NCBI GenBank assembly: GCA_964524645.1
Contig: CAZGEC010000009.1
Location: forward strand, 7,403 to 71,402
Reading direction: 5' to 3'
DNA: 64,000 bases
DNA from: an uncultured Fibrobacteraceae bacterium
GTDB lineage: Bacteria; Krumholzibacteriota; Krumholzibacteriia; LZORAL124-64-63
The notes beneath the pieces were generated by a model. The model saw nothing but the letters and a program-made list of their open reading frames with translations. It did no database searches and was not told where the DNA came from. Within the stretch, counting starts at the first letter, position 1, and every line of letters begins with the position of its first letter. Position numbers and translations under genes: made by a program. This document shows positions 9,320-64,000 of the stretch, in pieces.

Positions 9320-9348
9320 GCGTGCGTGGGTCGAACGCGGTGCCCCGC

Positions 9349-11253: not shown

Positions 11254-11581
11254 GATACTACCTGCCTGTTCGAGGAAGGAGTCTGGCAGTCGACCCAGGA
11301 AGAGCCCGTTTTCAAATTACCAAGTGCAATACTATGATATTTAGGGGAGCCATGTTCAAGCGAAATCTGCACAGTTAAGAAAACCATAATCAATTGCAAT
11401 TTCTTGTTCTCCAACCAGTTCCCGCAACATTGCCTTGACGGTGGCTTGGAGACCTGCTGTAATTCCCACTAATTGAATATGATCTGTCCCCGCCCCTGAA
11501 ACGACTTTTTCAGACAGCGGTGACACGATAACCTGGATTTGTGCTAGTGTCCAGCGAGATCAGCTGGTTGCGCGGGATGGG
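11254..11581. promoter_or_regulatory. AT-rich divergent promoter region between two cytochrome genes
   Basis: A 328-bp intergenic stretch of markedly low GC in a ~70% GC genome (e.g. ttcaaattaccaagtgcaatactatgatatttagg and cactaattgaatatgatctg), flanked by divergent gene starts. Confidence 0.4.
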
Positions 11582-12766: not shown

Positions 12767-12769
12767 GCC

Positions 12770-13699: not shown

Positions 13700-13708
13700 G
13701 AGGTCGGC

Positions 13709-15724: not shown

Positions 15725-16010
15725 CCGGCCCGGGCCCGAAGCGGTGCGAGAATGGGGAGCCTGCAAGGTTCCCATACCGAAAGGGATGCAGCGCCCGCTC
15801 TGCCAGGAATTCCTTCAATGGCTTTCATTTAGGTCGAAGTCGGGCTTGCTTCCGTGGCTCGCCTGTTGCGCTTTTTAGCGACTGATTGATGGTCCGCGAG
15901 CCCGTCTTGCCTCCCTGGGGGCACAACAAATGAGACTTGCGGGGCAGCAGCGGCCCACGTCATCGGTGCGGGGACGGGGCGGAGCCGGTGCCCGGGAAGG
16001 GACCAGGAGC

Positions 16011-17968: not shown

Positions 17969-18074
17969 TCGGGACCTTGCAAGACCAGATTTCGGTCAAT
18001 CTCCCGCGGCGACCGGCCGATAAGGAGGAGGGGAAAGAACGGACGAGACTGCACCGGCTGAAAACTCAACCCGG

Positions 18075-32374: not shown

Positions 32375-32602
32375 GCTCTTGCACTCCTTGCGGGGGACGC
32401 CGGGCACTCCGTCTCCGATCCGAAATAAACGCCTGTTGCGTCCCGGCGTCGGGGTTCTAATATCGCTCCACGGTTCCATCGGCGCCAGCCCTTAGGCTCC
32501 GGCAGCCGGATGGCGCCGCGGCGATGGCAATTTCTGCCGGATGGCTTATATCACCTTGGACGACGGTTCCTGCGAAACCCACGCCAGGAAAGGAAGGTCG
32601 TG

Positions 32603-38946: not shown

Positions 38947-39137
38947 TCGCCGCCATCGTCGCACACCACGAGCGGAGAGGCCCCCGGCCTCTCCGCTCGC
39001 TGCGATGGCACCGCGGGGACGGGGCCGCAATTTCGCGGGGACACGGAATCTTGTATACTTAGGCCCGGATGCTCTGGCGGCGGCCGCGCATCGACGCGCT
39101 GGTCGCCGAACTCCCGCGACCGTGAACCTGGCGCACC

Positions 39138-41192
39138 ATGCCGGGGAGGCTGATGCCCGTGACCCGTCCCTGCCAGCTCTCGATCCTCGCCGCGCTCCTG
39201 CTGCTCGGTGCCGCCCTGCCGGCGGGCGGCATACCGGTGCCCCTGGCGCCCGTTTCCAATGCCGCGCCCACCAATCCTGCACGCGCGCGGCGGCAAGCCC
39301 GCTACCTCGAGGCGGAGACCAAGATTCGCCGGGGCGCCGAATGGGCTCTCGCCGGGAAGAGCGCCGCCGGCGCCAAGACCGCGAACATGGACCTCTACGA
39401 CGTGCTCCACTACGACATCGACCTGGCGCTGAATCCCGCAACCCGGCAGCTCACGGGCTCGGTGACCACCACCGCGCGGGTGACGGGTGCGACCTTGACG
39501 GTGCTGGACCTCTACCTGCGGGCCAACATGGCGATCGGCTCCGCGCTGTCCGGCGGCAGTCCGACCACCTACAGCCGCGCCGGGGACGTCCTGAGCGTGG
39601 ATCTCGACCGGACCTATGCCGCGGGCGAGCAGGTGACGGTGCGGATCGATTACAGCGGCGATCCGGAGGGGAGTGCCTTCGACTGGGGCCAGCACGGCGG
39701 CCAGCCGTTGATCTGGACGCTGAGCGAGCCCTTCGGGGCTCGTGACTGGTGGCCCTGCAAGGATCTGAACTCGGACAAGGCCGATTCGGTGGACCTGCAC
39801 GTCACGGTGCCGGCGGGGCTGATCGTGGCCTCCAACGGCCTGCTGGTCGCGGCGGTGGACCACGGCGCCACCCGCACCTTTCACTGGCACGAGAGCCATC
39901 CCATCGCCACCTACCTGGTGAGCCTCGCCATTCATCCCTACGCTACCTTCTCCGGCTGGTACCACTACGCGCCCGGCGACTCCATGGAGCTGCAGTACTA
40001 CGTCGTGCCCGACCGCCTCGCCCAGTCCCAGGCCGCCTACGCCCCGGTCCCGGACATGCTGGCGGCCTTCGCGGGCGGCTTCGGGGAGTACCCCTTCGTC
40101 ACGGAGAAGTACGGCCATGCCCACTTCGGCTGGGGCGGGGGCATGGAGCACCAGACCCTCACCAGCCTGTACTACGGCGCCTACAGCGAGGGGGTCATCG
40201 CTCACGAGCTGGCCCACCAGTGGTGGGGCGACCTGGTGACCTGCGCCGACTTCCATCACATCTGGCTGAACGAGGGCTTCGCCACCTGGGCGGAGGCCTA
40301 CTGGCGCGAGCAGAACGAGGGGATGGCCGCCTACCACGACGAGATGGCGGACGCGGCCTACTGGGGTCCCGGCACCATCTACGTGGAAGACACCTCGAGC
40401 TTCGGCGCCATCTTCGACTTCGACCTGAGCTACCAGAAGGCCTCGTGGGTGGTGCACATGCTGCGGCACGTGCTGGGGGACGCGGACTTCTTCGCCGCCC
40501 TGCTGGCCTACCGGGAGCAGTACGCCTACGGGAGCGCCACCACCGAGCAGTTCCGCGACGTCTGCGAAGACGTCTCGGGCCAGGACCTGGATGTCTTTTT
40601 CCAGCAGTGGATCTACGGCGAGTACTTCCCGCAGTATCGTTACAGCTGGTACGCCGCGCCCGCGGGGGATTCGACCAGGGTGAGCCTCCTGGTGCAACAG
40701 GTGCAGACCGCGGCCGGCCTCTTCCGGATGCCGCTGGACGTGCGCGTCACGACCGACGAGGGGGTTTTCCCCTTCGCGGTGCAGAACGGCGAGCTGGCGC
40801 GGGCCTACGCCCTGAACGTGGCGGGCATGGTCCAGCAGGTGGAACTGGATCCCGAGCACTGGGTGCTCGCGACCGTCACCCAGGGGACGGTGGATGCGCC
40901 GGTGCTCGCCCGGCTGCGCCCGCGGCTGCTGCCGGCTTACCCCAATCCCTTCAATCCGGCGACCACGGTCCGCTTCGAGCTGCCCGCCCCCCAGGAGATC
41001 GCCCTGCGCCTGTACGATCTGCAGGGCCGCCTGGTACGCACGCTGGCGGCGGGGAGCTACGGTGCGGGTCCGCACGCACTGCCCTGGGACGGCACCGACG
41101 ACACCGGGCGCCGGGTCGCCTCGGGGACCTACGTCCTGCGCCTGGAGGCCGGCAAGACCCTGGCCGCCAGCAAGTTGACCCTGCTCAAGTGA
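39138..41192 (+). CDS. M1-family zinc aminopeptidase (aminopeptidase N-like) with a T9SS-type C-terminal sorting domain
   Basis: HELAHQWWGD...LNEGFATWAE is the HExxH(x18)E motif. GAMEN-like GGMEH. C-terminal PNPFNPATTVRFELP...YDLQGRLVRTL...WDGTDDTGRRVASGTYVLRL...LTLLK matches the Por_Secre_tail/FlgD-Ig-like domain. Confidence 0.85.
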   Translation: MPGRLMPVTRPCQLSILAALLLLGAALPAGGIPVPLAPVSNAAPTNPARARRQARYLEAETKIRRGAEWALAGKSAAGAKTANMDLYDVLHYDIDLALNPATRQLTGSVTTTARVTGATLTVLDLYLRANMAIGSALSGGSPTTYSRAGDVLSVDLDRTYAAGEQVTVRIDYSGDPEGSAFDWGQHGGQPLIWTLSEPFGARDWWPCKDLNSDKADSVDLHVTVPAGLIVASNGLLVAAVDHGATRTFHWHESHPIATYLVSLAIHPYATFSGWYHYAPGDSMELQYYVVPDRLAQSQAAYAPVPDMLAAFAGGFGEYPFVTEKYGHAHFGWGGGMEHQTLTSLYYGAYSEGVIAHELAHQWWGDLVTCADFHHIWLNEGFATWAEAYWREQNEGMAAYHDEMADAAYWGPGTIYVEDTSSFGAIFDFDLSYQKASWVVHMLRHVLGDADFFAALLAYREQYAYGSATTEQFRDVCEDVSGQDLDVFFQQWIYGEYFPQYRYSWYAAPAGDSTRVSLLVQQVQTAAGLFRMPLDVRVTTDEGVFPFAVQNGELARAYALNVAGMVQQVELDPEHWVLATVTQGTVDAPVLARLRPRLLPAYPNPFNPATTVRFELPAPQEIALRLYDLQGRLVRTLAAGSYGAGPHALPWDGTDDTGRRVASGTYVLRLEAGKTLAASKLTLLK

Positions 41193-41376
41193 TACCTGCC
41201 GCGGACGCTTGTCCCCGGTTCCGGGCCGCAACCTGTCGTTCCCCAAAACTGCGGGTTGTGCTACAATGCCCGCGGGGAGGACTTCGTCTGCCGCGGCAAC
41301 GGATTCTGCATAGCCAGGAACGCGCGTCGCGCCATCCGGTCCGGGGTCCCGCGACCCCATGAGAAAGGGTCCTGCA

Positions 41377-44300
41377 ATGAAGAGATTCGCCGTTTTCGCT
41401 CTTCTCCTGTCGCTGCTGGCCGGCGCCGTCGCCGCCCGTGCGGGCGAGCTGACTCCCGGCTTGCAGGAGCAGATGCGCGGTCTCGCCGACAATGACGAGC
41501 TGAAGGTGCTCGTGGTCATGAAGGACCGCGTCGACATCGGTGCCCTGGACTGGGAGCTGCACCAGGCCAAGGTGCCGCGCTCGCTACGCCACCAGCGCGT
41601 CCTGGAAAGCCTCCAGGCTGCAGCCGAGCGCGCGCAGGCCGACCTGCTGGCCGATCTGACGAGCAAGCAGGGAGCCGGCGGCGTGCGTGGCTGGACGCCC
41701 CACTGGATCGTCAATGGCGTGGTGGTGCGGGCAACCGTCGCGGCCATCCGCGAGCTGGCGGCGCGACCGGACGTCGAGCGCATCGAGGCGGATCTCGTGG
41801 TGGAGCTGATCGAACCCGTGGCCCAGGCCGCGGCCAAATCGGACAAGGGCATCGGCCTCTGCGACGGCGTGCACGCCGTCCAGGCGGACCGCGTCTGGCG
41901 GGAGCTCGGCGTCACCGGCGTTGGAGCGATCGTGGGCAACCTGGATACCGGCGTGGACGGAAGCCACCCCGCCTTCTCCGCGCGCTGGCGCGGGCACTTC
42001 GCGCCGGCGGAGCAGTGCTGGCTGGATGCGGCCGACTTCGGCGATCCCACGCCCGTGGACCACCACTATCATGGCACCCACGTCATGGGCACCATGACCG
42101 GCCTGGCCCCCGATGACACCATCGGTATCGCGCCCGGGGCGCTGTGGATCGCCAGCAACGTGATCAACCAGGGAACCGGCAGCGAGTTCGACAACGACGT
42201 CATCGCCAGCCTGGAGTGGATGGCGGACCCCGACGGGAACCCGGCCACCCTGGACGACGTGCCTGACGTGGTGCAGAACAGCTGGGGCGTGAACGAGGGC
42301 TTCAGCGGTTACTACGACTGCGACAGCCGCTGGTGGGACGCCATCGATGGTTGCGAGGCGGCGGGGGTGGTCCTGACCTGGTCGGCAGGCAACGAGGGCG
42401 AAGACGGCCCCATGACCATGCGCAGCCCCGCCGATCGGGCGGCCTCGCCCACCAACGCCTTCAGCGTGGGCTCGACGATCCGCGTGCCGCCGTACACGAT
42501 CAGCAGCTTCTCCAGCCGCGGGCCCTCGGGTTGCGGCGGTGAGTACGCCACGAAGCCCGAGGTGGTCGCGCCCGGCAGCGACATCTACAGCGCCCAGCCG
42601 GGCGGCGGCTACCAGTACCTGAGCGGCACCTCCATGGCCGGGCCCCACGTGGCCGGCGTGGTGGCGCTCATGCGCAGCGCCAATCCCGACGTAGACGTGA
42701 TCACCGTCAAGGAGATCCTGATGGCCACGGCCACGGATCTGGGCCCGGCCGGCGAGGAGAACACCTACGGACACGGTCTCGTCAATGCCTACGAGGCGGT
42801 GCTGGCGGTGATGGGCGGCCTCGGTGCCGTCGAGGGAACGGTCACCGACGCCAGCACGAGCCTGCCCCTGGCCGGTGTGCTGGTGCGTGACGTGGGCGGG
42901 TACAATACCCGCACCACCGGCGCCGACGGAGCCTACAGCATGGTGCTGACCGCCGGCGACCACACCCTGTCCTTCAGCGCCTTCGGCTACCTGGGCGACT
43001 CCAGGGTGTTCAGTCTGGCCGAGGCGGAGACGCTCACGTTGGACGTGGCCCTGGCGCCGGCGCCGACCGCCACGCTCTCCGGTCACGTCTACGATCCGGA
43101 AGGGGATCCGGTCGCGGGCGCCACGGTCACGGTGCTCGATACACCCCTGACGCCCGCGGTGACCGATCCGTCCGGCTACTACGAGATCGTCATGCCGACG
43201 GGGGCGACCTACGAGGTGCGCGCCCGCGCCAACGGTCTCGGCGCCGAGCAGGTCACCGTGGTCTTCGACGGCGACCTCGAGCAGGACTTCCACCTGCCCA
43301 TTCTCTACGCCGAGGACTTCGAGAGCGGCAACTTCCTCGTCTTCCCCTGGGAGATGAGCGGCGTCGCCGACTGGGTCATCGATACAGCCGATCCGTACGA
43401 GGGGGCCGATTGCGCCAAGTCCGGCGCCATCAGTCACAACCAGGAAACGGTCATGTCCGTGACCCTGGACGTCGTGGCGGGAGGCGATATCAAGTTCTAC
43501 TACAAGGTCTCTTCCGAGAGCGGCTACGACTACCTGCGCTTCTTGATCGACGGCTCCGAGGCCCAGAGCTGGTCCGGCACGGTGGCCTGGGCCCTCGCCA
43601 CCTTCCCCGTGGACGTGGGGACGCACACCTTCACCTGGAAGTACACCAAGGACGGCTCGGTCTCCAGCGGCAGCGACGCCGCCTGGGTGGACTTCGTCGA
43701 GTTCCCGACCATCGTCCCACCGCAGTATCCGCAGATGATCTGCTCGCCGCTGAGCTTCGAGGTCACCCTCGCCCCCGGGTCCTCGATGACCCGGCTGCTG
43801 TCCCTGGCCAACCACGGCGGGGCGGCTCTCGATTTCCTGGCCACGGTGGCCGAGGCCGTCAAGTCGCGGCCCGTTGCGACGGTCGGCAAGCCGGCCCCGG
43901 AGCTGCCCAAGGATGCGGTCGACACGCGGCCGGGCGTCGCCGCCGAGAAGGGAGCCGGCGGTCCTGATGAGTTCGGGTATTACTGGAAGGACAGCGACGA
44001 GCCGGGCGGACCGTCCTACGACTGGGTCGAGATCAACGGTGTCGGCAGTGTGGTCGGGTCCGGCGACGACTCCAACCACGGGCCCTTCGACATCGGTTTC
44101 CCCTTCCAGTACTACGGCGACTTCTACAGCAGCGTCCGGGTCTGCACCAACGGCTGGGTTTCCTTCACCTCCAGCTCCACCAGCTACACCAACAACCCGA
44201 TCCCGAACGCCGGCGATCCGAACAACCTGCTCGCCATCTTCTGGGACGACCTGAATCCCAACGACGGCGGCACCATCTACTACTACCAGGACACGGCGAA

Positions 44301-45039
44301 CGAGCGGTTCATCGTGGAATGGGACGGGGTGCCCCACTACTCGACCAGCCACAACGGGCCGCCGGTGACCTTCGAGGTGATCCTGAACATCGACGGCAGC
44401 ATCGTCTACCAGTACCAGACGACGGCCATCGTCAACGAGTGCACGGTCGGCATCGAGGACGCCGCGGGGGCCGACGGCCTGCAGGTGGTCTTCGATGCCG
44501 CCTACCTGCACGACGACCTGGCCATCCGCTTCGCCGCCGAGTCGCCCGTGCCCTGGCTGAGCCTGGATCAGCAGATCGGCACGGTGCCCCCCGGCGGCAA
44601 GCTCGATCTGCATGTCTTCTTCGACGCCGCGGACATGGCCGCGGGCAGCTATGCCGCCCGGATCCTGCTCGCCAGCAACGATCCCTCGGTCATCGCCATG
44701 GAGATCCCCGTGACCCTCCTGGTGGACGACCTCTCGGCGGCCGGAGAGGGGAGCATCCCGGAGATCATGACCCTGGAGACGCCTTACCCCAACCCGTTCA
44801 ATCCGCAGACGATCATTCCCTTCCGCCTGCCGCAGACCATGCGGGTGGAGCTGCGGATCTACGACCTGGCCGGACGCCTGGTTCGCACCCTGATCGACGG
44901 CCCGCGCGCGGCCGGCCCGAACCAGATCCTCTGGGACGGCACCGATGCCCGGGGTCGCTCCGTGGCCTCGGGTACCTACTACGCCCGCTTGATCGCCGGC
45001 GAGCAGGTCCAGGTGCGTCCCCTGGTCCTGGTGCGCTAG
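41377..45039 (+). CDS. Subtilisin-like (S8) serine protease, large multidomain, with a T9SS-type C-terminal sorting domain
   Basis: Catalytic triad DTGVD, HGTHVMGT, GTSMAGPHVAGV. Additional carboxypeptidase-regulatory-like/beta-sandwich modules. C-terminal PYPNPFNPQT..IYDLAGRLVRTL..WDGTDARGRSVASGTYYARL..LVLVR. Alternative start at 41359. Confidence 0.85.
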   Translation: MKRFAVFALLLSLLAGAVAARAGELTPGLQEQMRGLADNDELKVLVVMKDRVDIGALDWELHQAKVPRSLRHQRVLESLQAAAERAQADLLADLTSKQGAGGVRGWTPHWIVNGVVVRATVAAIRELAARPDVERIEADLVVELIEPVAQAAAKSDKGIGLCDGVHAVQADRVWRELGVTGVGAIVGNLDTGVDGSHPAFSARWRGHFAPAEQCWLDAADFGDPTPVDHHYHGTHVMGTMTGLAPDDTIGIAPGALWIASNVINQGTGSEFDNDVIASLEWMADPDGNPATLDDVPDVVQNSWGVNEGFSGYYDCDSRWWDAIDGCEAAGVVLTWSAGNEGEDGPMTMRSPADRAASPTNAFSVGSTIRVPPYTISSFSSRGPSGCGGEYATKPEVVAPGSDIYSAQPGGGYQYLSGTSMAGPHVAGVVALMRSANPDVDVITVKEILMATATDLGPAGEENTYGHGLVNAYEAVLAVMGGLGAVEGTVTDASTSLPLAGVLVRDVGGYNTRTTGADGAYSMVLTAGDHTLSFSAFGYLGDSRVFSLAEAETLTLDVALAPAPTATLSGHVYDPEGDPVAGATVTVLDTPLTPAVTDPSGYYEIVMPTGATYEVRARANGLGAEQVTVVFDGDLEQDFHLPILYAEDFESGNFLVFPWEMSGVADWVIDTADPYEGADCAKSGAISHNQETVMSVTLDVVAGGDIKFYYKVSSESGYDYLRFLIDGSEAQSWSGTVAWALATFPVDVGTHTFTWKYTKDGSVSSGSDAAWVDFVEFPTIVPPQYPQMICSPLSFEVTLAPGSSMTRLLSLANHGGAALDFLATVAEAVKSRPVATVGKPAPELPKDAVDTRPGVAAEKGAGGPDEFGYYWKDSDEPGGPSYDWVEINGVGSVVGSGDDSNHGPFDIGFPFQYYGDFYSSVRVCTNGWVSFTSSSTSYTNNPIPNAGDPNNLLAIFWDDLNPNDGGTIYYYQDTANERFIVEWDGVPHYSTSHNGPPVTFEVILNIDGSIVYQYQTTAIVNECTVGIEDAAGADGLQVVFDAAYLHDDLAIRFAAESPVPWLSLDQQIGTVPPGGKLDLHVFFDAADMAAGSYAARILLASNDPSVIAMEIPVTLLVDDLSAAGEGSIPEIMTLETPYPNPFNPQTIIPFRLPQTMRVELRIYDLAGRLVRTLIDGPRAAGPNQILWDGTDARGRSVASGTYYARLIAGEQVQVRPLVLVR

Positions 45040-54260: not shown

Positions 54261-55508
54261 CTACTTCACCAGGGTCATGCGCCCGCTGCCGGTCCCGTCG
54301 CAGGTCACCAGACGGTAGAGGTAGATGCCCGAGGGCACCGGATCGCCGGCGGTCGTCGTGCCGCGCCAGGTGAGGGCCTGCAGGCCCGCCACGGCCACGA
54401 ACTCACGGTCGAAGACGCGGCGGCCGGTCAGGTCGTAGATGGTCAGGCTCGCCGGTCCCGACCGCACGGTCGCGAACGTGATGCTGGTGGCGGGATTGAA
54501 CGGGTTCGGATGGTTGCCCAGCAGCGTGAAGGCCGGCGCCTCGGGCACGGGGCTGAGATCCGGCTCGTCCATGCTCCAGACGTCCCCGTTGACCGTGTAC
54601 TCACCGTAGCCGTCGGTGCTGATCACGATGTGGCCGTTCACCACGGTCAGGTCCGCGGCCGGCAGGGTCCCGCCCGAGCCGGGCTCGGTCTGGTACACGT
54701 AGGCGCCGTAGGCGACCAGGCGGTCGAGAGTTTGCTGGTGGGGGTGGCCGTAGGAGTTGTTGCCCACCGAGATGATCGCGACCTCGGGGCGGGTCGCGTT
54801 CAGGAAGTTGGCGTTGCTGCTGGTGTAGGAACCGTGGTGGTTCACCTGGTAGACCTCGAGATCGCCGAGTTCCGGTCCCACGCTGCTCTCGATGTCGCGG
54901 TACGTGCTGTTGTTGATGCCGCTCAGGTCCCCCGCCTGCACGAAGTCGAAGTCTCCGCATTCCACGAGCAGGGTGACGCAGTAGTCGTTCTCCTCGTCGT
55001 CGAATGGGGGAGACAGCACGCCGTTCCCGTTGACCGCATAGCAGGTGGCCGTGACACCGTCTCCGAGGTCGATCACCTGGCCGTCCGTGATCGTGTGCCG
55101 CTTGGGCGCGACGGTGGCCGCGTAGGAGCTGTAGGTGGCGGTGGTGTAGCTCCAGCCACGATCGTAGACCGCCTCGTTGACACCCCGTGCCTGGTAGACC
55201 TCGTCCAGCCCGCCGATGTGGTCGGCGTGGTAGTGGCTGGCCACCATGTAGTCCACGGGCCCGATGCCGAGCGAGGCGAGGTAGGGCACGATGGTGCCCA
55301 GCCCCTTGCCGTTGTCCCCGCCGTCGAAGAGCAGGGTCCGGCCGCTGGACGAGATCACCAGGGTGGCGTCGCCCTGCCCCACGTCGAGGCAGTGGATGGT
55401 GACGCTGGCCATGGCGGTCGCGGCCAGCAGCAAGGGGAACAGGCCTAGCAGCCAGGCTGTTCGCAGCCGAGGGATTCGGGGACTGTCCAACGGGCGCACG
55501 GATGTCAT
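54261..55508 (-). CDS. Secreted MBL-fold metallo-hydrolase (ComEC-like beta-lactamase domain) with a T9SS-type C-terminal sorting domain
   Basis: IHCLDVGQGDATLV...SHYHADHIGG is the HxHxDH motif. Signal peptide. C-terminal NHPNPFNPATSITF..IYDLTGRRV..GIYLYRL..MTLVK. Confidence 0.75.
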   Translation of the reverse strand: MTSVRPLDSPRIPRLRTAWLLGLFPLLLAATAMASVTIHCLDVGQGDATLVISSSGRTLLFDGGDNGKGLGTIVPYLASLGIGPVDYMVASHYHADHIGGLDEVYQARGVNEAVYDRGWSYTTATYSSYAATVAPKRHTITDGQVIDLGDGVTATCYAVNGNGVLSPPFDDEENDYCVTLLVECGDFDFVQAGDLSGINNSTYRDIESSVGPELGDLEVYQVNHHGSYTSSNANFLNATRPEVAIISVGNNSYGHPHQQTLDRLVAYGAYVYQTEPGSGGTLPAADLTVVNGHIVISTDGYGEYTVNGDVWSMDEPDLSPVPEAPAFTLLGNHPNPFNPATSITFATVRSGPASLTIYDLTGRRVFDREFVAVAGLQALTWRGTTTAGDPVPSGIYLYRLVTCDGTGSGRMTLVK

Positions 55509-58844: not shown

Positions 58845-59035
58845 CCACCCTCTCCGGGTGGGCGGCCCGGCCGATCCCTCGGAAGTCCGGTGCGAATCCG
58901 GCGCGGCCCCGCCACTGTGAGCGGTGACGAAAGCTGCAGGAGAGCCACTGGTCACCCGGCGTCACCGCCGGAACCGGGAAGGCGCAGCGAGTAGGACGAC
59001 CCGCGAGCCAGGAGACCGATCCCGGGCCCGATTGC
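58845..59035 (+). promoter_or_regulatory. Cobalamin (B12) riboswitch
   Basis: GGTGCGAATCCGGCGCGGCCCCGCCACTGTGA matches the conserved GGTGnnAAnTCC...CCCGCCACTGT core. GAGCCAGGAGACCGATCC matches the B12 box (GCCAGGAGACCkGCC). Sits directly upstream of a TonB-dependent receptor. Confidence 0.7.
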
Positions 59036-59062
59036 CACGACCTTCGCGGGCGAGGTGCGGCA

Positions 59063-61159
59063 ATGGCGGTCTCCACCGCTGTTTCGACTTCCGGAGCCGG
59101 TCTTCTGCGGGCAGCTCTTCCCCTCGCCTGCTGGTTGCTGCCGGGCAGCCTCTGGCTTGCGGCCGGCGACGTCCGGGCCGCCCCGGAGCCGATCTTCGAC
59201 GGCGGCGTGACCGATACCATCGTCGTCAGCGCGACCCGCCCCCTGACCCTGAGCTTTCCCGTGGCGCCGGCGGTGGTCACGGTGGTGCCCCTGGAGGAGG
59301 GGACCGGCGGCGCGGACCTGGCCGAGCTGCTGGAGCAGGTGGCCGGCCTGCAGATCCGCCGCTACGGCGGGCTGGGGGCTCAGGCGCTGCCCTCCATCCG
59401 GGGCTCGACCGCCGCCCAGGTGGCCATCCTGGTGGACGGTGTACCCCTGGCCGATGCCCAGGACGGCGCCGTGGACCTGGCCGACCTGCCCCAGGAGCGC
59501 TTCGCCAGGGCGGAGATCTACCGGGGGCTCGTGCCGGCCGCGACAGGTGGGCCGGGGGGCGCGGGCGCCATCAACCTGGTGACGCGCGAGGCGGCCGCGG
59601 GCAGCTCCCTGCGCCTCTTCACAGGCTCCTTCGGCGACCTGGGAGGCCGAATCTCCCACGATGCGCTGCTCGCGGGCGGTCGCCTGCGGCACCAGCTGAC
59701 CCTGCACGGGCGGCGCAGCGACCTGCGCTATCCCTTCCTGGATCACAACCAGACCCTGCACGATGAGAGCGACGACCGGGAACGAACCCGACGGAACGCC
59801 CAGTTCGCGGAGTACGGGGGCTTCCTGACCGAGGACTGGGATCCCGCCGGCCTGCGCTTGCAGGCCAGGGCGGGTTACCTACGGCGCGACGGCGGGCGGC
59901 CGGGACCGCTGGGTCACGAGAGCCCCCATGCCGCGGTCCGCCGGCAGCGCGGCGACGGTCACCTGAGCCTCCAGACGGCGAGCGGCCTGGTGCGTCTGGA
60001 CCTGATGGCCAGCAGCTGCGAGGAAAGGCTGCACGACGACCTGCAGGAGGTGGGCTGGGATCCCGCGGGCACCGTCCGCAGCCTGTCCAGCGAGATCTAC
60101 GCGCGCGGAGTGCTGGCGCCCCGGCTGGCCTTGCCGTGGTCCGGCCGCGACGGGCGCGAAGCCGAGCTGCAGCTGCGGGCCGGGCTGGACGGCCGGCGCC
60201 AGTGGTACCGCGAATCGCTGAACGGCGAGACGGATCCGCTGCGGGCGCGCACGAGCGTGACCGCCTTCGCGGAGGCGGACCTGGAGCTTCCGGCCACACG
60301 GCTCGTGCTCACACCGGGCTGGCGCTGGACGCGCGCCGAGGACAACTTCCCCGCGCTCGTCCCGCCCTGGATGCCCTGGCTCGAGGAGGAACCCCTGGCC
60401 GAACCGCACGTCGTGCAGGCGGTCACCCCGTCGCTCGGCGCGGTGTGGGAGGCGGTGCCGGGCCGCCTGCAGGCGGTCGCCCACGCCGCGCGCAACGTGC
60501 GCCTGCCCACCTGGGTCGAGCTGTTCGGGCACCGCGGCGGGATCGACGGCAACCGCGAGCTGCGACCCGAGACCATAAAGTCCTGGGATGCGGGCCTGCA
60601 GTGGCGTGATCCCCTGGAGGGCACACGCCTGCGGCTGGTCTACTTCCAGGTGCGCACCGCGGACGCGATTCTCTTCATCCAGAACAGCCAGCGCACCAGC
60701 CAGGCCTGGAACTTCGGGGCCGTTCGGACGAGCGGGGTGGAGCTGGAAGGCGCCCGCCGACTCCCCGGGAGGCTGCGCTCGACCCTGAACCTGACCTGGC
60801 AGCGGGCCCGCGACGACGGCCCCGATCCCGCCTATCACGGCAAGGAGCTGCCGTTTCTGCCGTCCCTGGAGGGCCGCCTCGCCCTGGACGCCTACTGGGG
60901 GGCCTGGCAGCCCGGCCTGGCGCTGACCTTCGAGGGGCACAACTTCCGCGATCGTTACAACGCGGTCGAGGAACGAGCGCCCCCCCGCACCCTGCTCAAC
61001 CTCAAGCTGGCCCGTAACTGGAGCCTGCCGGGGCGAGGCGGCGGGCGGCTGCTGACGCTGACCGCCGAGCTGATCAACACCACCGACAACGCGGTCTACG
61101 ACGTGGAGGGCTATCCCCTGCCGGGGCGCAGCTACCGTTTCTCCTGCTACCTGCGCTGA
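59063..61159 (+). CDS. TonB-dependent outer-membrane receptor (BtuB-like)
   Basis: Signal peptide. Plug domain (DTIVVSATR.., IRGSTAAQVAILVDGVPL). 22-strand barrel length. Follows the B12 riboswitch. Confidence 0.8.
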   Translation: MAVSTAVSTSGAGLLRAALPLACWLLPGSLWLAAGDVRAAPEPIFDGGVTDTIVVSATRPLTLSFPVAPAVVTVVPLEEGTGGADLAELLEQVAGLQIRRYGGLGAQALPSIRGSTAAQVAILVDGVPLADAQDGAVDLADLPQERFARAEIYRGLVPAATGGPGGAGAINLVTREAAAGSSLRLFTGSFGDLGGRISHDALLAGGRLRHQLTLHGRRSDLRYPFLDHNQTLHDESDDRERTRRNAQFAEYGGFLTEDWDPAGLRLQARAGYLRRDGGRPGPLGHESPHAAVRRQRGDGHLSLQTASGLVRLDLMASSCEERLHDDLQEVGWDPAGTVRSLSSEIYARGVLAPRLALPWSGRDGREAELQLRAGLDGRRQWYRESLNGETDPLRARTSVTAFAEADLELPATRLVLTPGWRWTRAEDNFPALVPPWMPWLEEEPLAEPHVVQAVTPSLGAVWEAVPGRLQAVAHAARNVRLPTWVELFGHRGGIDGNRELRPETIKSWDAGLQWRDPLEGTRLRLVYFQVRTADAILFIQNSQRTSQAWNFGAVRTSGVELEGARRLPGRLRSTLNLTWQRARDDGPDPAYHGKELPFLPSLEGRLALDAYWGAWQPGLALTFEGHNFRDRYNAVEERAPPRTLLNLKLARNWSLPGRGGGRLLTLTAELINTTDNAVYDVEGYPLPGRSYRFSCYLR

Positions 61160-61180
61160 GCGCGCGAAAGGACGGATCCC

Positions 61181-62605
61181 ATGGGCAAGCACCGCCTCCA
61201 ATCCGTCGCCCTGCTGTCCCTGCTGCTGCTCGGGGCCGTCGCGGCCCGGGCCGACTGGGACGAGTTCGTTCTGCTGACCAGCGACTACAGCACTGTGGGC
61301 TATGTCTGTTCCGTGCAGCGAGCGAGTCCCTGGACCCTCGCCATCGACCTCGAGGACATCCACCACGATGCCAGGGCACGCTGGCATGCGGGCCTCTACT
61401 ACGTGGTCAACGGCGGCGACGCCAGCAACCTGCAGATCATCGATCCGGCCGCCGGCTACCAGACGATCCGGCAGTTCAGCCTGGGCGCCGGCCGCGGCCC
61501 TTACGACATCGCCTTCCGCGAGGACGGGATCGCCTTCGTCTCCTGCTACGACACGCCGGAGCTGCTGAAGGTGGACGTGCAGGGCGGCCACGTGCTGGAC
61601 AGCTACTCGACGGCCCCCTGGGCCGACGCGGACGGGATCCCCGAGACCGGCTGGATGCAGGCGGTCGGCAACCGGCTGTTCGTCACCTGCCAGCGGCTGG
61701 ATCGCAACAGCTGGTACACCCCGGCCGGCAGCGGCTGTCTGCTCGTCTTCGACATGGCAGCCGAGGCGTGGGTGGATGCTGTCCCGACCACGCCCGAGAT
61801 CGACCCGGTCGCGCTGGGCGGCGAGGATCCCTACCCGCAGCTCGAGCTGAGCCGGGATCGCACGCAGCTGCGCGTGGGCTGCACGGGCTGGTACGGGCTG
61901 CTCGACGGGGGGATCGAGGTGGTAGACCTGGACGGCCTGACCAGCCTGGGCTTCGAGATCGACGAGGCGGAGCTGGGAGGCGACCTGCTGGACTTCGAGC
62001 GCGTGGGGACGGGCGACGTCTGGGTCGTCGTCAGCGATCCCAGCTTCCGGACCTCGATCCGCCGCCACGTCCGCGACATCCCCGGTGTGGAGGTCCTATA
62101 CCAGTCGGCGACCTATGGACCGGTCGACATCGCCTGCGACGGGGCCAGCCACGTGTACGCCTGCGACCGCACGCCGGGCCACGCCGGCCTGCGGGTCTTC
62201 GCGGCCGACAGCGGGGCTCAGCTGACCGCCGCGCCCATCTTCACGGGTCTGCCGCCGGCCTGGGCCGTGCTGCCGGTCGACGAGGCCCTCACCGCGGTGC
62301 CGCCCGGCGGCTCGCCGCCTCCGGAAGCCCGGCTGGTGCTGGAAGCTCCCTGGCCCAATCCGGCCAACCCCTTGCTGCAGCTGCGCCTGCGCGGACCAGC
62401 CGGTACGGCCGTACCCCTGCGCATCTACGACCTGCGCGGCCGCCTCCTGCGCACCGCCCTGGTGAGTCTGGATGCCGGAGGACAGGGGACCTACGTGTTC
62501 GACGGCCGGGACGACCGGGGCCGGCCCGTGCCCTCGGGCGTCTACCAGGCTCGGGCGGGAGAGGGGCCGGGAGCGGCGGCTCGCCGCTTCACCCTGGCGC
62601 GCTAG
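61181..62605 (+). CDS. Secreted YncE/YVTN-like beta-propeller protein with a T9SS-type C-terminal sorting domain (BtuG-like candidate)
   Basis: Signal peptide MGKHRLQSVALLSLLLLGAVAARA. Repeated propeller blades (YYVVNGGDASNLQIIDPAAG.., NRLFVTCQRLD..). C-terminal PWPNPANP...IYDLRGRLLRTA...SGVYQAR..FTLAR. Confidence 0.65.
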   Translation: MGKHRLQSVALLSLLLLGAVAARADWDEFVLLTSDYSTVGYVCSVQRASPWTLAIDLEDIHHDARARWHAGLYYVVNGGDASNLQIIDPAAGYQTIRQFSLGAGRGPYDIAFREDGIAFVSCYDTPELLKVDVQGGHVLDSYSTAPWADADGIPETGWMQAVGNRLFVTCQRLDRNSWYTPAGSGCLLVFDMAAEAWVDAVPTTPEIDPVALGGEDPYPQLELSRDRTQLRVGCTGWYGLLDGGIEVVDLDGLTSLGFEIDEAELGGDLLDFERVGTGDVWVVVSDPSFRTSIRRHVRDIPGVEVLYQSATYGPVDIACDGASHVYACDRTPGHAGLRVFAADSGAQLTAAPIFTGLPPAWAVLPVDEALTAVPPGGSPPPEARLVLEAPWPNPANPLLQLRLRGPAGTAVPLRIYDLRGRLLRTALVSLDAGGQGTYVFDGRDDRGRPVPSGVYQARAGEGPGAAARRFTLAR

Positions 62606-62690
62606 AGCGGCGGCGCAATCTGGCCATGCCAGCGGCCCGGGAAGCTGCTACCATGATCCGGCGAGCCAGGACCCAGCACGGGGAGCGATC

Positions 62691-63338
62691 ATGGCCAGGA
62701 TCTACACGCGTACCGGGGACCGGGGCGAGACGTCCCTGTTCGACGGGACCCGCACGGCCAAGTCCGACGAACGGGTCGATCTCTACGGCGAGCTGGACGA
62801 GCTGAACAGCCATCTCGGTCTCTGCGCGGAGCGGCTCCTGCGGGATAGCCGCGCCGGCGAGGTTGCCGCGGACGCGCGGGAAGGGAACGTGCAGGAGTCG
62901 CGCCTGCAGCTCTCCCTGCTGGCCTCCGCCCTGCTCACCCTGCAGAACGATCTCTTCGCGATGGGCGCGATCCTGGCCGACCCGCCGCGCTGCCGGGAGC
63001 TGGCGGACAGCGGTGGCCCGCTACCCTTCGACGCCGGGCCCCTGGAGAAGATGATCGACGGGATGCAGGACGAGCTGCCGCCGCTCCGGTCCTTCATCCT
63101 GCCCAGCGGCTCCGTGAACGCGGCGGCCCTGCACGTGGCGCGGACCGTCTGCCGCCGCGTCGAGCGGAAGGCCGTGGGTCTGTCCCGCCGCCAGCCGCTG
63201 CCGGCCCGGATCCTCGTCTACCTGAACCGCCTGAGCGATTACCTCTTCGTCGCCGCCCGCTGGGCCAACCATGTCCTGGGCCGGCCGGAAGCGACCTGGC
63301 CTCCCGCCGGGGAATCGCAGGAGGATCCCGCCCCGTGA
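62691..63338 (+). CDS. ATP:cob(I)alamin adenosyltransferase, PduO type
   Basis: MARIYTRTGDRGETSLFDG is the PduO-type N-terminal signature. Confidence 0.85.
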   Translation: MARIYTRTGDRGETSLFDGTRTAKSDERVDLYGELDELNSHLGLCAERLLRDSRAGEVAADAREGNVQESRLQLSLLASALLTLQNDLFAMGAILADPPRCRELADSGGPLPFDAGPLEKMIDGMQDELPPLRSFILPSGSVNAAALHVARTVCRRVERKAVGLSRRQPLPARILVYLNRLSDYLFVAARWANHVLGRPEATWPPAGESQEDPAP

Positions 63339-64000
63339 CGTCTGCGACCCCGGAGCGTCCCGTGCAGCGTGTCACGGCCCGCGAGCGCAACATCCTGCTC
63401 GTCACCGGGGTGGCGCACTTCCAGGCCCATCTCTACATGCTGGTCTTTCCCTCGCTGGCCCTGGCCCTGCGCACGGCCTTCGACCTGCCCCTGGACCAGG
63501 TGCTGGCGATCAGCTTCTGGATGTACCTGCTCTACGGGCTGGGAGCATTGCCGAGCGGCATCATCACCGATCTCTGGCGCCCGCGCGGCATGCTGGCGAT
63601 CTGCCTGCTGGGGATGGGGGCCTGCGCGCTGGCCGCCTCGCGGGCGGGGAGCCTGGGCCACCTGCGCTGGTCGCTGGCCGGCCTGGGACTGTTCGCCAGC
63701 ATCTACCATCCCGCCGGCATGGCCCTGATCAGCCGCGGGGTGGCCCGGCGCGGCTGGGCCCTCGGCGTCAACGGGGTCTGCGGCAACCTGGGCGTCGTGG
63801 CGGCACCCCTCCTGACGGGGCTGCTGGCCGTGGCTCTCGGCTGGCGCGCCGCCTATCTCGTCCTGGCCGCGCCGGCCCTGATCGGCGGGGTGCTGGTCCT
63901 CTGCCTGGATATCTCGGGAGAGGTGGAACCGCATATCCCGGTGCCGGCCGACCGCCGCACGCAGGGTCGGCGCGTGTTCTACTTCGCCCTGCTCTGCATG
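63335..64000 (+). CDS. MFS transporter (partial, continues beyond window end)
   Basis: GTG start overlaps the pduO stop. Several TM helices (LLVTGVAHFQAHLYMLVFPSLALAL..). No stop codon before position 64000. Confidence 0.55.
   Translation, partial: MTSATPERPVQRVTARERNILLVTGVAHFQAHLYMLVFPSLALALRTAFDLPLDQVLAISFWMYLLYGLGALPSGIITDLWRPRGMLAICLLGMGACALAASRAGSLGHLRWSLAGLGLFASIYHPAGMALISRGVARRGWALGVNGVCGNLGVVAAPLLTGLLAVALGWRAAYLVLAAPALIGGVLVLCLDISGEVEPHIPVPADRRTQGRRVFYFALLCM

What the first reader, a model, noticed from the sequence alone, without database searches (positions are those of the whole stretch)
58845..64000. B12 riboswitch controlling a btuB-like receptor, a beta-propeller (BtuG-like candidate), a PduO adenosyltransferase and an MFS transporter
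A clear cobalamin riboswitch (GGTG..AA.TCC core plus the B12 box GCCAGGAGACCG) precedes a TonB-dependent receptor. Next comes a secreted 7-bladed-propeller-like protein. In Bacteroides, the surface B12-capturing lipoprotein BtuG is a beta-propeller encoded next to btuB; here the analogous protein carries a T9SS sorting domain instead of a lipobox. The operon continues into a PduO-type adenosyltransferase and an MFS transporter that may act as an inner-membrane corrinoid importer in place of BtuCD.
Basis: partly seen in the sequence, partly recalled or inferred. Interest (0 to 1): 0.6.

Follow-up and report, generated by a model that had tools for sequence, protein, structure and literature searches.

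The report
B12 uptake operon with secreted BtuG-like propeller
An uncultured high-GC bacterium (probably Krumholzibacteriota) has a vitamin B12 riboswitch in front of an outer-membrane B12 receptor and a distant relative of BtuG, the Bacteroides surface B12-capture protein; here the relative carries a C-terminal secretion tag instead of a lipid anchor, which suggests that BtuG-type capture extends well beyond Bacteroidota.

Summary
A cobalamin riboswitch (RF00174, 76.5 bits) lies at 58881-59016. It is followed on the + strand by a TonB-dependent transporter, a 474-aa secreted protein, a PduO adenosyltransferase and a truncated MFS permease.

The 474-aa protein models confidently (pLDDT 90.6) as a propeller plus an Ig-like C-terminal domain. 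All its best propeller-only PDB matches are BtuG structures (TM 0.70-0.78). Its wider family links to BtuG's Pfam family DUF5074 by sub-threshold hits and by profile-profile comparison (97% probability).

Among 80 related species genomes, every locus with enough upstream sequence (70 of 70) has the riboswitch. 77 of 80 have the transporter directly upstream. Two loci have the riboswitch directly in front of the propeller gene alone.

None of 49 close homologues has a lipobox. The tail is homologous to three other tails in this window that pass the T9SS type A sorting-domain model.

A profile search finds 3,235 clusters. Many are lipoproteins without the tail, and the three fetched loci with such lipoproteins carry the riboswitch (two with an adjacent transporter).

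The MFS-importer idea is weak: the permease is in only 8 of 80 loci, and none of four distant homologues sampled has a B12 context.

Verdict: a new variant of a known kind; B12 binding is untested.

The parts
58881..59016 (+). Cobalamin riboswitch aptamer (RF00174); B12 box GCCAGGAGACCG at 59007-59018
   Evidence: 76.5 bits, E 6e-18, model positions 47-167; sequence. Homologous riboswitches lie at the same position in relatives.
59011..59074 (+). Putative expression platform. GGAGACCG (59011-59018, the 3' half of the B12 box) is complementary to CGGTCTCC (59067-59074), just after the ATG at 59063. No terminator is present.
   Evidence: the MFE fold pairs these segments, but the whole-region z-score is not significant; no terminator-like site. 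Translational control is inferred, and the direction of the switch is not resolved.
59063..61159 (+). BtuB-type TonB-dependent transporter, 698 aa; TonB box DTIVVSA at residues 51-57
   Evidence: Plug + barrel; the E. coli BtuB plug is among the best PDB sequence hits (2e-11). AF2 pLDDT 83.7; the best PDB fold match is B. thetaiotaomicron BtuB1 from the BtuB1G1 complex (8blw_A, E 7e-32, TMt 0.83). The protein is below the BtuB equivalog cut-offs.
61181..61249 (+). Sec-type (signal peptidase I) signal peptide of the propeller protein, residues 1-23 (…AVAARA/DW); no cysteine
   Evidence: the sequence has no lipobox, and none of 49 homologues has one. N-terminal helix with low pLDDT.
61250..62284 (+). 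BtuG-like beta-propeller domain, residues about 24-368 (about seven blades); family signature FADADGxPE (residues 147-155 of the window protein, which reads WADADGIPE)
   Evidence: AF2 pLDDT 90.6; the best propeller-only matches are BtuG1/2/3 (TMt 0.70-0.78, rmsd 3.6-4.6 A); sub-threshold DUF5074 hits in relatives; hhalign 97% against BtuG3; riboswitch and transporter linkage.
62285..62353 (+). Flexible linker, residues about 369-391
   Evidence: pLDDT below 50 at residues 369-381.
62354..62605 (+). C-terminal Ig-like beta-sandwich: FlgD_ig / T9SS type-A-like sorting domain (residues about 392-474 plus the stop codon)
   Evidence: FlgD_ig 27.8 bits (cut-off 27). TIGR04183 17.6 bits (cut-off 23). 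PorZ CTD 1.2e-4; 33-45% identical to the tails of three other window proteins that pass TIGR04183.
62691..63338 (+). PduO-type ATP:cob(I)alamin adenosyltransferase, 215 aa
   Evidence: PF01923 1.5e-51; TIGR00636 162.7 bits (cut-off 108); downstream of the propeller in 43 of 80 related loci.
63335..64000 (+). MFS permease, truncated by the window end; a GTG start overlaps the PduO stop codon (GTGA)
   Evidence: The full-length orthologue in L001 is 410 aa with PF07690. The gene is present in only 8 of 80 related loci. Substrate unknown.

Best explanation
This is a corrinoid (vitamin B12) scavenging locus repressed by a cobalamin riboswitch.

Proposed mechanism:
1. When cellular cobalamin is low, the leader allows expression, probably at the level of translation because no terminator is present.
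2. Two proteins that work as a pair are made. One is a BtuB-type TonB-dependent outer-membrane transporter. The other is a roughly seven-bladed beta-propeller that is a remote homologue of the Bacteroides B12-capture protein BtuG.
3. The propeller is exported by Sec. Its C-terminal T9SS-type sorting domain then takes it across the outer membrane, instead of the N-terminal lipid anchor that Bacteroides BtuG uses. After removal of the sorting domain it is either tethered to the cell surface or released.
4. Outside the cell it binds corrinoids on a conserved polar and acidic face and hands them to the transporter, probably by capping the barrel like BtuG.
5. TonB energises import into the periplasm.
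6. The PduO enzyme encoded downstream adenosylates the imported corrinoid to the coenzyme form.
7. The MFS permease is a lineage-specific addition of unknown substrate.

Shown computationally: the riboswitch, the gene order, the folds, the remote homology to BtuG, the export signals, and the invariant linkage of riboswitch, transporter and propeller across many species.

Inferred: B12 binding, lid formation, surface location, and the direction and mode of the switch.
For: Riboswitch: RF00174 at 76.5 bits.

Transporter: TonB box DTIVVSA, close to E. coli BtuB's DTLVVTA (sequence; the E. coli motif is from my own knowledge). The best fold match is B. thetaiotaomicron BtuB1, followed by XusA, BtuB3, E. 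coli BtuB, PqqU and BtuB2.

Propeller fold: AF2 pLDDT 90.6. After two multi-domain hits driven by the Ig-like tail, ranks 3-15 of the PDB Foldseek list are all BtuG-family structures: BtuG1/2/3 chains and 3dsm, which Wexler et al. use as the BtuG2 structure. The clean superpositions have TMt 0.70-0.78. XusB follows at about 0.6. The viral-library propellers listed stay below 0.6.

Homology:
- BtuG3 is Pfam DUF5074 (4.4e-20).
- Family member P0428 hits DUF5074 at 1.3e-5, and DUF5074 is the commonest Pfam hit in the family (7 of 53 members).
- hhalign of the family against BtuG3 gives 97.2% probability, E 3.4e-11, over 309 columns. The CTD-type subfamily alone gives 50%, E 1.6e-4.

Context:
- All 5 metagenome loci have riboswitch, then transporter, then propeller.
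- In 80 species genomes, 70 of 70 loci with at least 2.3 kb upstream have the riboswitch. The 8 weakest hits were confirmed by Rfam at 55-101 bits. The transporter is directly upstream in 77 of 80.
- In L076 and L088 the riboswitch sits directly in front of a stand-alone propeller gene.
- Loci with lipoprotein-type relatives (L088, L093, L094/L095) also carry the riboswitch, with an adjacent transporter in L093 and L094/L095. L093 continues into btuF-like, ABC ATPase and FecCD genes.

Export: none of 49 homologues has a lipobox. The CTD is homologous to tails in this window that pass TIGR04183.

PduO.
Against: - No biochemical evidence exists that any member of this family binds a corrinoid.
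- The window protein itself has no DUF5074 hit and is only 12-13% identical to BtuG in the structural alignments. Profile searches against PDB sequences put BtuG chains at only E 0.04-0.12.
- The 97% hhalign figure includes aligned signal-peptide and lipobox columns and rests on a low-diversity BtuG3 alignment.
- The mapping of BtuG B12-contact residues is only approximate. Two consensus positions (N106, Q108) are Gly and Tyr in the window protein.
- The propeller's own CTD is below the TIGR04183 cut-off.
- No T9SS machinery gene was found among the about 42 window ORFs scanned against Pfam or NCBIfam, out of about 45 with coding-like composition. T9SS is described in the literature as limited to Bacteroidetes (PMC11611037).
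- A transporter-propeller complex could not be modelled with the tools available.
- The inner-membrane step is unidentified.
Confidence: 0.75

Rival explanations
1. Secreted 'corrinophore' variant. After T9SS export and removal of the sorting domain, the propeller is released into the medium. There it captures corrinoids at a distance and returns them to the transporter, as haemophores do for haem, rather than acting as a tethered lid.
For: The protein has a signal-peptidase-I signal and a T9SS-type tail but no lipid anchor. A roughly 20-residue disordered linker separates the propeller from the tail. Two species carry the propeller gene behind its own riboswitch with no adjacent transporter (L076, L088). 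From my own knowledge, many T9SS type A cargos in Flavobacteria are released as soluble proteins.
Against: The transporter is adjacent in 77 of 80 loci with tight spacing (21 nt here), which suggests a stoichiometric partnership as in BtuBG. The transporter's best fold match is the lid-bearing BtuB1. From my own knowledge, type A tails in Porphyromonas lead to surface attachment through anionic LPS. The stand-alone copy in L088 is a lipoprotein, so it is anchored.
Confidence: 0.2
2. The propeller is a transporter accessory that does not itself bind B12. It could be a structural cap, an assembly factor, or an enzyme that processes corrinoid-carrying material before uptake.
For: Sequence identity to BtuG is very low and the B12-contact residues are not clearly conserved. 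Beta-propellers are functionally diverse. Sources label the family YncE-like or NHL.
Against: The strict B12-riboswitch linkage includes two loci where the riboswitch controls the propeller alone. BtuG structures are the specific best fold matches. Invariant Asp, Asn and Gln positions align at or next to BtuG's corrin-binding residues (residues from PMC13616437). No catalytic family is hit.
Confidence: 0.12
3. The MFS permease is the inner-membrane corrinoid importer, replacing BtuCD.
For: Its start codon overlaps the PduO stop codon, so it is probably co-translated within the B12 locus. The same arrangement recurs in L001 and in 8 of 80 species. No btuFCD genes recur near these loci. Two distant homologues sit directly after a TonB-like gene. 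From my own knowledge, some MFS-type permeases import ferric siderophores downstream of TonB-dependent receptors.
Against: The gene is absent from about 90% of related loci, which must therefore use another importer. None of four more distant homologues has a cobalamin riboswitch or B12 genes nearby. There are only generic MFS hits, and some sources label relatives as fosmidomycin-resistance-like. Absence of btuCDF elsewhere in the genome was not tested. I found no described MFS cobalamin transporter.
Confidence: 0.12

Closest known systems
BtuB-BtuG vitamin B12 uptake complexes of Bacteroides thetaiotaomicron (BtuG = Pfam DUF5074; PDB 8blw, 8bmx, 8p98, 8bai)
   Same: - A cobalamin riboswitch is followed by a BtuB-type transporter and then a propeller gene immediately downstream.
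- The fold is a seven-bladed-type propeller, TM 0.70-0.78 to BtuG1/2/3.
- The family is remotely homologous to DUF5074.
- The transporter's best structural match is BtuB1 from the BtuB1G1 complex.
- Some relatives are fused to, or sit next to, a second accessory domain, as in BtuG-BtuH fusions.
   Different: - The protein has no N-terminal lipid anchor. It has a signal-peptidase-I signal plus a C-terminal T9SS-type Ig-like sorting domain, so any tether would be at the C-terminus.
- Identity is only about 12-13%, and the window protein does not reach the DUF5074 threshold.
- The host is not Bacteroidota; record titles name Krumholzibacteriota and Eisenbacteria.
- No btuFCD, btuH or btuJ genes are in the locus; PduO is present instead.
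- B12 binding is untested.
XusA-XusB xenosiderophore system of Bacteroides (PDB 9gbc, 9hqk)
   Same: It pairs a TonB-dependent transporter with a surface beta-propeller partner. XusA is the second-best fold match to the transporter, and XusB follows the BtuG structures as a match to the propeller.
   Different: XusB matches less well (TMt about 0.6). The locus is under a cobalamin riboswitch, not iron control. XusB belongs to DUF4374 and is a lipoprotein.
T9SS type A cargo proteins (TIGR04183 / Por_Secre_tail), e.g. PorZ of Porphyromonas gingivalis
   Same: The layout is an N-terminal Sec signal, a functional domain, a linker and a roughly 80-residue C-terminal Ig-like sandwich. The profile hits the PorZ CTD (1.2e-4). 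Three paralogous tails in this window pass TIGR04183.
   Different: This protein's tail is below the model's cut-off and scores better as FlgD_ig. The host phylum is outside Bacteroidota. T9SS machinery was not shown.
E. coli btuB riboswitch and BtuB
   Same: An RF00174 leader sits before the receptor gene, apparently with translational control. The TonB boxes are nearly identical (DTIVVSA against DTLVVTA).
   Different: E. coli has no extracellular capture protein. Here the receptor is translationally close-coupled to a propeller gene.

Membership tests
Cobalamin riboswitch (Rfam RF00174) | Covariance-model score at or above the gathering score | tested here: met
   76.5 bits against 31.5, E 6e-18. 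Only model positions 47-167 are matched.
Cobalamin riboswitch (Rfam RF00174) | B12 box and a position in the 5' leader of a B12-related gene | tested here: met
   GCCAGGAGACCG lies at 59007-59018, 45 nt before the transporter ATG. The same arrangement occurs in 70 of 70 testable related loci.
BtuB-type TonB-dependent B12 transporter | Plug domain, 22-strand barrel and TonB box | tested here: met
   PF07715 and PF00593. AF2 barrel with pTM 0.85. DTIVVSA at residues 51-57.
BtuB-type TonB-dependent B12 transporter | Passes the curated BtuB equivalog models (TIGR01779, NF007926) | tested here: not met
   83.8 bits against a cut-off of 599.7, and 66.1 against 836. Only the plug region aligns.
BtuB-type TonB-dependent B12 transporter | Closest solved structures are BtuB | tested here: met
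   8blw_A (BtuB1) ranks first. BtuB3, E. coli BtuB and BtuB2 are in the top 7, but the margins over other transporters are small.
BtuB-type TonB-dependent B12 transporter | Transports cobalamin | not testable with these tools
   Inferred from the riboswitch only.
BtuG (Pfam DUF5074, PF16819) | Seven-bladed beta-propeller fold superimposable on BtuG | tested here: met
   TMt 0.70-0.78, rmsd 3.6-4.6 A to 8bai, 8bn0, 8bmy, 8ptd and 8okv. These are the best propeller-only hits.
BtuG (Pfam DUF5074, PF16819) | Sequence membership: Pfam gathering score | tested here: not met
   The window protein has no DUF5074 hit. The best family member reaches 24.8 bits against 27.2. 7 of 53 relatives hit at E 0.01 or better.
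BtuG (Pfam DUF5074, PF16819) | Detectable remote homology by profile-profile comparison | tested here: inconclusive
   97.2% probability, E 3.4e-11, for the broad family against BtuG3, but signal-peptide columns are included. The CTD-type subfamily alone gives 50%, E 1.6e-4.
BtuG (Pfam DUF5074, PF16819) | Encoded next to btuB under a cobalamin riboswitch | tested here: met
BtuG (Pfam DUF5074, PF16819) | N-terminal lipoprotein anchor (lipobox cysteine) | tested here: not met
   None of 49 close homologues has a lipobox. Many more distant tail-less family members do have one.
BtuG (Pfam DUF5074, PF16819) | Conserved corrin-contacting residues (BtuG2 E55, Q93, N107, S131, S195, Q219) | tested here: inconclusive
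   In the hhalign alignment N107 matches the conserved N77. The others fall at or next to conserved D35, D63, N106 and Q171/R172. The alignment is uncertain, and the window protein differs from the family consensus at two of these positions (residues from PMC13616437).
BtuG (Pfam DUF5074, PF16819) | High-affinity corrinoid binding; lid on BtuB | not testable with these tools
   The attempt to model a complex failed.
T9SS type A sorting domain (TIGR04183 / PF18962) | Passes the model's cut-off | tested here: not met
   TIGR04183 17.6 bits against 23. PF18962 12.8 bits against 27. FlgD_ig 27.8 bits against 27.
T9SS type A sorting domain (TIGR04183 / PF18962) | C-terminal roughly 80-residue Ig-like sandwich after a linker, with an N-terminal Sec signal; homologous to bona fide CTDs | tested here: met
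   The tail is 33-45% identical to the M1-peptidase, S8-peptidase and MBL tails in this window, which score 35.8, 31.0 and 27.7 bits on TIGR04183. 34 of 49 homologues hit PF18962 at E 1 or better, best 1.5e-6.
T9SS type A sorting domain (TIGR04183 / PF18962) | T9SS machinery (PorK/L/M/N, Sov/SprA, PorU, PorV) encoded in the genome | not tested
   None was seen in the about 42 window ORFs scanned.
PduO-type ATP:cob(I)alamin adenosyltransferase | Passes PF01923 and TIGR00636 | tested here: met
   175.3 bits (cut-off 24) and 162.7 bits (cut-off 108).
Inner-membrane cobalamin importer (functional class) | Consistent genomic linkage of the MFS to B12 regulons | tested here: not met
   The MFS is in 8 of 80 related loci. 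None of 4 distant homologues has a riboswitch.

The most novel reading that the evidence does not exclude
BtuG-type extracellular B12 capture is not a Bacteroidota speciality. It belongs to a very large, unannotated protein family (3,235 clusters at 50% identity) spread over several phyla.

The family comes in two export forms. One is a lipoprotein. The other, seen here, is exported through a T9SS-type C-terminal sorting domain in Krumholzibacteriota and Eisenbacteria. In the second form the propeller may work as a C-terminally tethered lid or even as a released 'corrinophore'.

This would also imply working T9SS-type secretion of nutrient-capture proteins outside Bacteroidota.
Probability: 0.55. 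Interest if true: 0.7.

Novelty: new variant of a known kind. Interest (0 to 1): 0.6.

Why it matters
Published work states that BtuG homologues are found only in Bacteroidetes (PMC6143338) and that lid-capped TonB-dependent transporters seem exclusive to that phylum (PMC10404256; bioRxiv 10.1101/2023.03.17.533168). One suggested reason is that other diderms cannot export lipoproteins to the cell surface.

This locus suggests a different picture. The same capture module exists in uncultured environmental phyla. Here the surface-export problem appears to be solved by a C-terminal secretion tag.

If the protein binds corrinoids, three things follow:
- The known range of high-affinity B12 scavenging would widen to soils, sediments and wastewater communities.
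- Annotators would gain a marker for a large unannotated family in B12 regulons.
- Researchers would have a natural test of whether a BtuG-like lid can work with a C-terminal tether, or untethered.

It also gives a concrete cargo for studying T9SS-like secretion outside Bacteroidota.

Tried and rejected
1. Modelling the transporter-propeller complex. The two ORFs are in the same frame, so I tried a read-through fusion as one chain. With the stop replaced by Gly, MAFFT misaligned the transporter homologues onto the propeller part, giving 16-22% identity instead of 45-58%. I abandoned the attempt, so no interface evidence was obtained.

3. An exact-sequence look-up of the window's own propeller protein found no contig on record.

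4. Profile searches of the propeller against PDB sequences gave no significant hit. BtuG chains were 9 of the top 14 but at E 0.04-0.12, next to WD40 proteins and regucalcin. Homology could not be shown that way. It needed the broader family alignment and a BtuG3 sequence recovered from gut metagenome loci.

5. MFS as a B12 importer. Four distant homologues were examined. Two follow a TonB-like gene and two are in unrelated contexts. None has a cobalamin riboswitch.

6. I looked for btuFCD or other recurrent B12 genes around 80 related loci by all-against-all clustering. Only the transporter, the propeller, DusB, PduO and backbone synteny recur.

7. The whole-leader fold energy is no better than shuffled sequence (z = 0.73), so the proposed start-codon pairing is only a lead.

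8. Literature searches linking BtuG, DUF5074, Krumholzibacteriota or Eisenbacteria with T9SS or B12 capture found nothing relevant.

Full report
**Observation.**
The window is 68% G+C. Rfam places a cobalamin riboswitch (RF00174) at 58881-59016 on the + strand, with 76.5 bits against a gathering score of 31.5 (E 6e-18).

Four + strand genes follow:
- 59063-61159: a 698-aa TonB-dependent transporter with Plug and barrel domains.
- 61181-62605: a 474-aa protein whose only Pfam hit is FlgD_ig at residues 402-459.
- 62691-63338: a PduO-type adenosyltransferase (PF01923, 1.5e-51; TIGR00636 above its cut-off).
- 63335 onward: an MFS permease cut by the window end. It is 65% identical to a complete 410-aa MFS_1 protein in a syntenic locus.

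The gaps are 21 nt, 85 nt and a GTGA overlap. No terminator-like site was found. The genes upstream are unrelated: dusB, a ferritin-like gene and citrate synthase.

**The leader.**
There is no intrinsic terminator between the aptamer and the ATG. The 3' half of the B12 box (GGAGACCG, 59011-59018) is perfectly complementary to CGGTCTCC at 59067-59074, just after the start codon, and the MFE fold pairs them. This suggests control of translation initiation, as at E. coli btuB. However, the fold energy of the whole region is no better than that of shuffled sequence (z = 0.73). I could not tell which conformer is the ligand-bound one, so this step is inferred.

**The transporter.**
- It does not reach the curated BtuB equivalog cut-offs (83.8 against 599.7 bits).
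- Its TonB box, DTIVVSA at residues 51-57, is almost that of E. coli BtuB (DTLVVTA, from my own knowledge).
- E. coli BtuB is among the best PDB sequence hits through the plug domain (2e-11).
- An AF2 model (pLDDT 83.7, pTM 0.85) has as its best PDB match BtuB1 of the B. thetaiotaomicron BtuB1-BtuG1 complex (8blw_A, E 7e-32, TMt 0.83, rmsd 3.7 A). XusA, BtuB3, E. coli BtuB, PqqU and BtuB2 follow.

The margins over other transporters are small, so the B12 assignment rests mainly on the riboswitch.

**The 474-aa protein.**
With an alignment of 49 homologues, the AF2 model has pLDDT 90.6. Its parts are:
- a signal peptide (residues 1-23);
- an all-beta propeller (about 24-368);
- a disordered linker (369-381, pLDDT below 50);
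- a C-terminal beta-sandwich (about 392-474).

In the Foldseek search of the PDB, the first two hits are multi-domain proteins matched with poor rmsd: an archaeal YVTN propeller plus PKD protein, and PorZ. Ranks 3-15 are all BtuG-family structures: BtuG1, BtuG2 (BT1954), BtuG3 (BT2095), and 3dsm, which Wexler et al. use as the BtuG2 structure. The clean superpositions have TMt 0.70-0.78 and rmsd 3.6-4.6 A over about 360 columns, at 12-13% identity. Next comes XusB, the xenosiderophore-binding lid, at TMt about 0.6.

**Is it homologous to BtuG, or only similar in fold?**
- Profile searches against PDB sequences were not significant. BtuG chains were 9 of the top 14 but at E 0.04-0.12.
- I recovered full-length BtuG3 from human-gut metagenome loci. 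It belongs to Pfam DUF5074 (4.4e-20).
- A profile of the propeller domain alone, searched against 1.84 billion representative proteins, found 3,235 clusters at E 1e-3 or better and 796 at 1e-30 or better.
- Many of the best hits are 365-400 aa, lack the C-terminal domain, and start with a clear lipoprotein signal, for example VIAGC, FATGC and VFVACGDDDDDD.
- One of them, P0428, hits DUF5074 at 1.3e-5 (24.8 bits; cut-off 27.2). DUF5074 is the commonest Pfam hit in a sample of 53 family members (7 of 53 at E 0.01 or better).
- hhalign of that sample (with the window domain as first sequence) against BtuG3 gives 97.2% probability, E 3.4e-11, over 309 columns. The CTD-type subfamily alone gives 50%, E 1.6e-4, over 203 columns.

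The higher figure is inflated by aligned signal-peptide and lipobox columns, and the BtuG3 alignment has little diversity. I therefore read this as probable remote homology, not proof.

BtuG2's corrin-contacting residues are E55, Q93, N107, S131, S195 and Q219, with W194 lining the pocket (PMC13616437, PMC10404256). All are conserved in BtuG3 at an offset of 11. In the alignment:
- N107 matches the conserved N77 of the family.
- The others fall at or next to conserved D35, D63, N106 and Q171/R172.
- The family signature ADADGxPE aligns with BtuG3 TMETGSTE.

The register is uncertain, and the window protein departs from the family consensus at two of these positions.

**Genomic context in relatives.**
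This is the strongest evidence.
- Five metagenome loci with homologues of 35-55% identity lie in at least four different neighbourhoods. All have riboswitch, then transporter, then propeller.
- A scan of one genome per species found 273 genomes with a relative. The best 80 carry titles naming Krumholzibacteriia or Krumholzibacteriota, Eisenbacteria, a few Gemmatimonadales, and many 'uncultured Fibrobacteraceae', a label I suspect is an automatic mislabel.
- An nhmmer search with the riboswitch alignment hit 70 of the 80, always on the + strand and (except in L076 and L088) about 2.2-2.7 kb upstream. All ten misses are contigs with less than 2.3 kb upstream, so 70 of 70 testable loci are positive.
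- The eight weakest hits were confirmed by Rfam at 55-101 bits.
- The transporter is directly upstream in 77 of 80. One exception is a cut contig.
- In the other two exceptions (L076, L088) the riboswitch lies directly in front of a stand-alone propeller gene. This ties the propeller itself to B12, not merely to the transporter.
- Loci with lipoprotein-type relatives behave the same way. L094 and L095 (titled as a Deltaproteobacteria MAG) and L093 have riboswitch, then transporter, then propeller. L093 continues into btuF-like, ABC-ATPase and FecCD genes.

**Export signal.**
- None of 49 close homologues has a lipobox. All have signal-peptidase-I-type signals.
- The C-terminal domain scores 27.8 bits on FlgD_ig (cut-off 27) but only 17.6 on TIGR04183 (cut-off 23).
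- It is 33-45% identical to the tails of three other secreted proteins in this window, with shared PNPxNP, YDLxGR and SGxY motifs. These are an M1 peptidase, an S8 peptidase and a metallo-beta-lactamase-fold protein. Their tails pass TIGR04183 at 35.8, 31.0 and 27.7 bits.
- The family profile hits the PorZ CTD (1.2e-4), and 34 of 49 homologues hit Por_Secre_tail at E 1 or better.

So the tail is a T9SS type-A-like sorting domain by paralogy. The export route is therefore inferred.

The existence of a form with a tail that directs proteins across the outer membrane is itself an argument that the family acts outside the cell, as BtuG does. In a propeller the N- and C-termini usually lie in the same blade, so a C-terminal tether would emerge near where BtuG's N-terminal lipid-anchored hinge does. 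This last point is inference.

**PduO and the MFS.**
- PduO lies downstream in 43 of 80 loci, all with 39% or higher propeller identity. In several loci a small opposite-strand SpoIIAA-like gene intervenes, so co-transcription is not general.
- The MFS occurs in 8 of 80 loci, always after PduO.
- More distant MFS homologues (44-50% identity) in other phyla show no cobalamin riboswitch. Two follow a TonB-like gene and two are in unrelated contexts.
- Clustering of all neighbouring ORFs shows no recurrent btuFCD.

The MFS-importer idea is therefore neither excluded nor supported.

**Comparison with what is known.**
- Wexler et al. found BtuG homologues exclusively in Bacteroidetes by BlastP (PMC6143338).
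- Abellon-Ruiz et al. concluded that lipoprotein-capped transporters seem exclusive to Bacteroidetes (PMC10404256).
- Price noted that lids are virtually all in Bacteroidota and guessed that other diderms lack the surface-lipoprotein export machinery (bioRxiv 10.1101/2023.03.17.533168).
- I found no paper in the library linking BtuG or DUF5074 to T9SS or to these phyla.

The locus works like BtuBG but fails two membership criteria for BtuG proper: the Pfam threshold and the lipoprotein anchor. I file it as a new variant of a known kind: a BtuG-like family with an alternative export and anchoring mode and a much wider distribution.

**Verdict.**
Confidence that this is a riboswitch-controlled B12 uptake pair with a BtuG-like extracellular partner is about 0.75. 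Corrinoid binding, lid formation and the secretion route remain to be shown. Interest 0.6.

Noticed in passing
window 2-17906: A cluster of at least six multihaem c-type cytochrome genes: 2-2812 (-), 7730-9247, 9349-11316 (-), 11483-12766, 12767-13699, and 15879-17906, which is fused to a cytochrome b561 domain. Several hit MtrC/MtrF-like domain models, so this may be an extracellular electron-transfer locus. The ORFs at 13700-15724 (674 aa) and 18024-21152 (1042 aa) have no Pfam hit.
   Followed up: no
window 39126-41192, 41314-45039, 54261-55508 (-): An M1 peptidase, a 1241-aa S8 subtilase and a metallo-beta-lactamase-fold protein all end in the same FlgD_ig / T9SS type A sorting domain as the propeller. 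This tail therefore looks like a general export tag in this genome.
   Followed up: partly
L033:4852-5628 and L032:6423-7199; P0436 residues 493-708; P0493: In two related loci a 258-aa secreted protein with no Pfam hit lies between the propeller and PduO. It is 35% identical (E 4e-26) to the C-terminal domain of P0436, a lipoprotein-propeller fusion encoded in L093 in a riboswitch, transporter, propeller, btuFCD-like locus. This gene-fusion link recalls BtuG-BtuH fusions and marks a candidate second corrinoid-binding module. It also has a weak hit to the Leptospira LIC_13355 lipoprotein family.
   Followed up: partly
L076:4486-6368 and L088:4670-6026: Two species have a cobalamin riboswitch directly upstream of a stand-alone propeller gene with no adjacent transporter. 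The L088 copy is a 384-aa lipoprotein without the C-terminal tail.
   Followed up: yes
proteins P0374-P0506: The propeller family is very large: 3,235 clusters at 50% identity with E 1e-3 or better. Pfam and NCBIfam do not annotate it. Many members are lipoproteins with acidic residues after the cysteine. P0361 is a tandem double propeller. P0420 and P0412 carry large extra domains.
   Followed up: partly
L089:5383-7233 and L090:5382-7221: In two loci (L089 from a Deltaproteobacteria-labelled MAG, L090 unlabelled), homologues of the MFS permease (about 45% identical) sit immediately downstream of a TonB C-terminal-domain gene. This hints at a link to TonB-dependent uptake in general, but there is no B12 riboswitch.
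   Followed up: partly
L026, L027, L033, L036, L045, L047 (e.g. L036:6162-6590, - strand): A conserved small SpoIIAA-like (STAS) gene on the opposite strand is inserted between the propeller and PduO in several Krumholzibacteriia loci.
   Followed up: no
window 58845-58880; also L004 and L093: The window's riboswitch matches only Rfam model positions 47-167. The 5' part of the model is not matched, although a GC-rich hairpin (CCACCC…GGGTGG) lies just upstream. L004 and L093 show the same partial match, while most relatives match positions 1-189.
   Followed up: no
window 32429-33625 and 33454-34626: Two tandem glyceraldehyde-3-phosphate dehydrogenase paralogues.
   Followed up: no
L093:4079-4211: Two Acido-Lenti-1 sRNA matches on opposite strands lie just upstream of the cobalamin riboswitch of the lipoprotein-fusion locus.
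   Followed up: no
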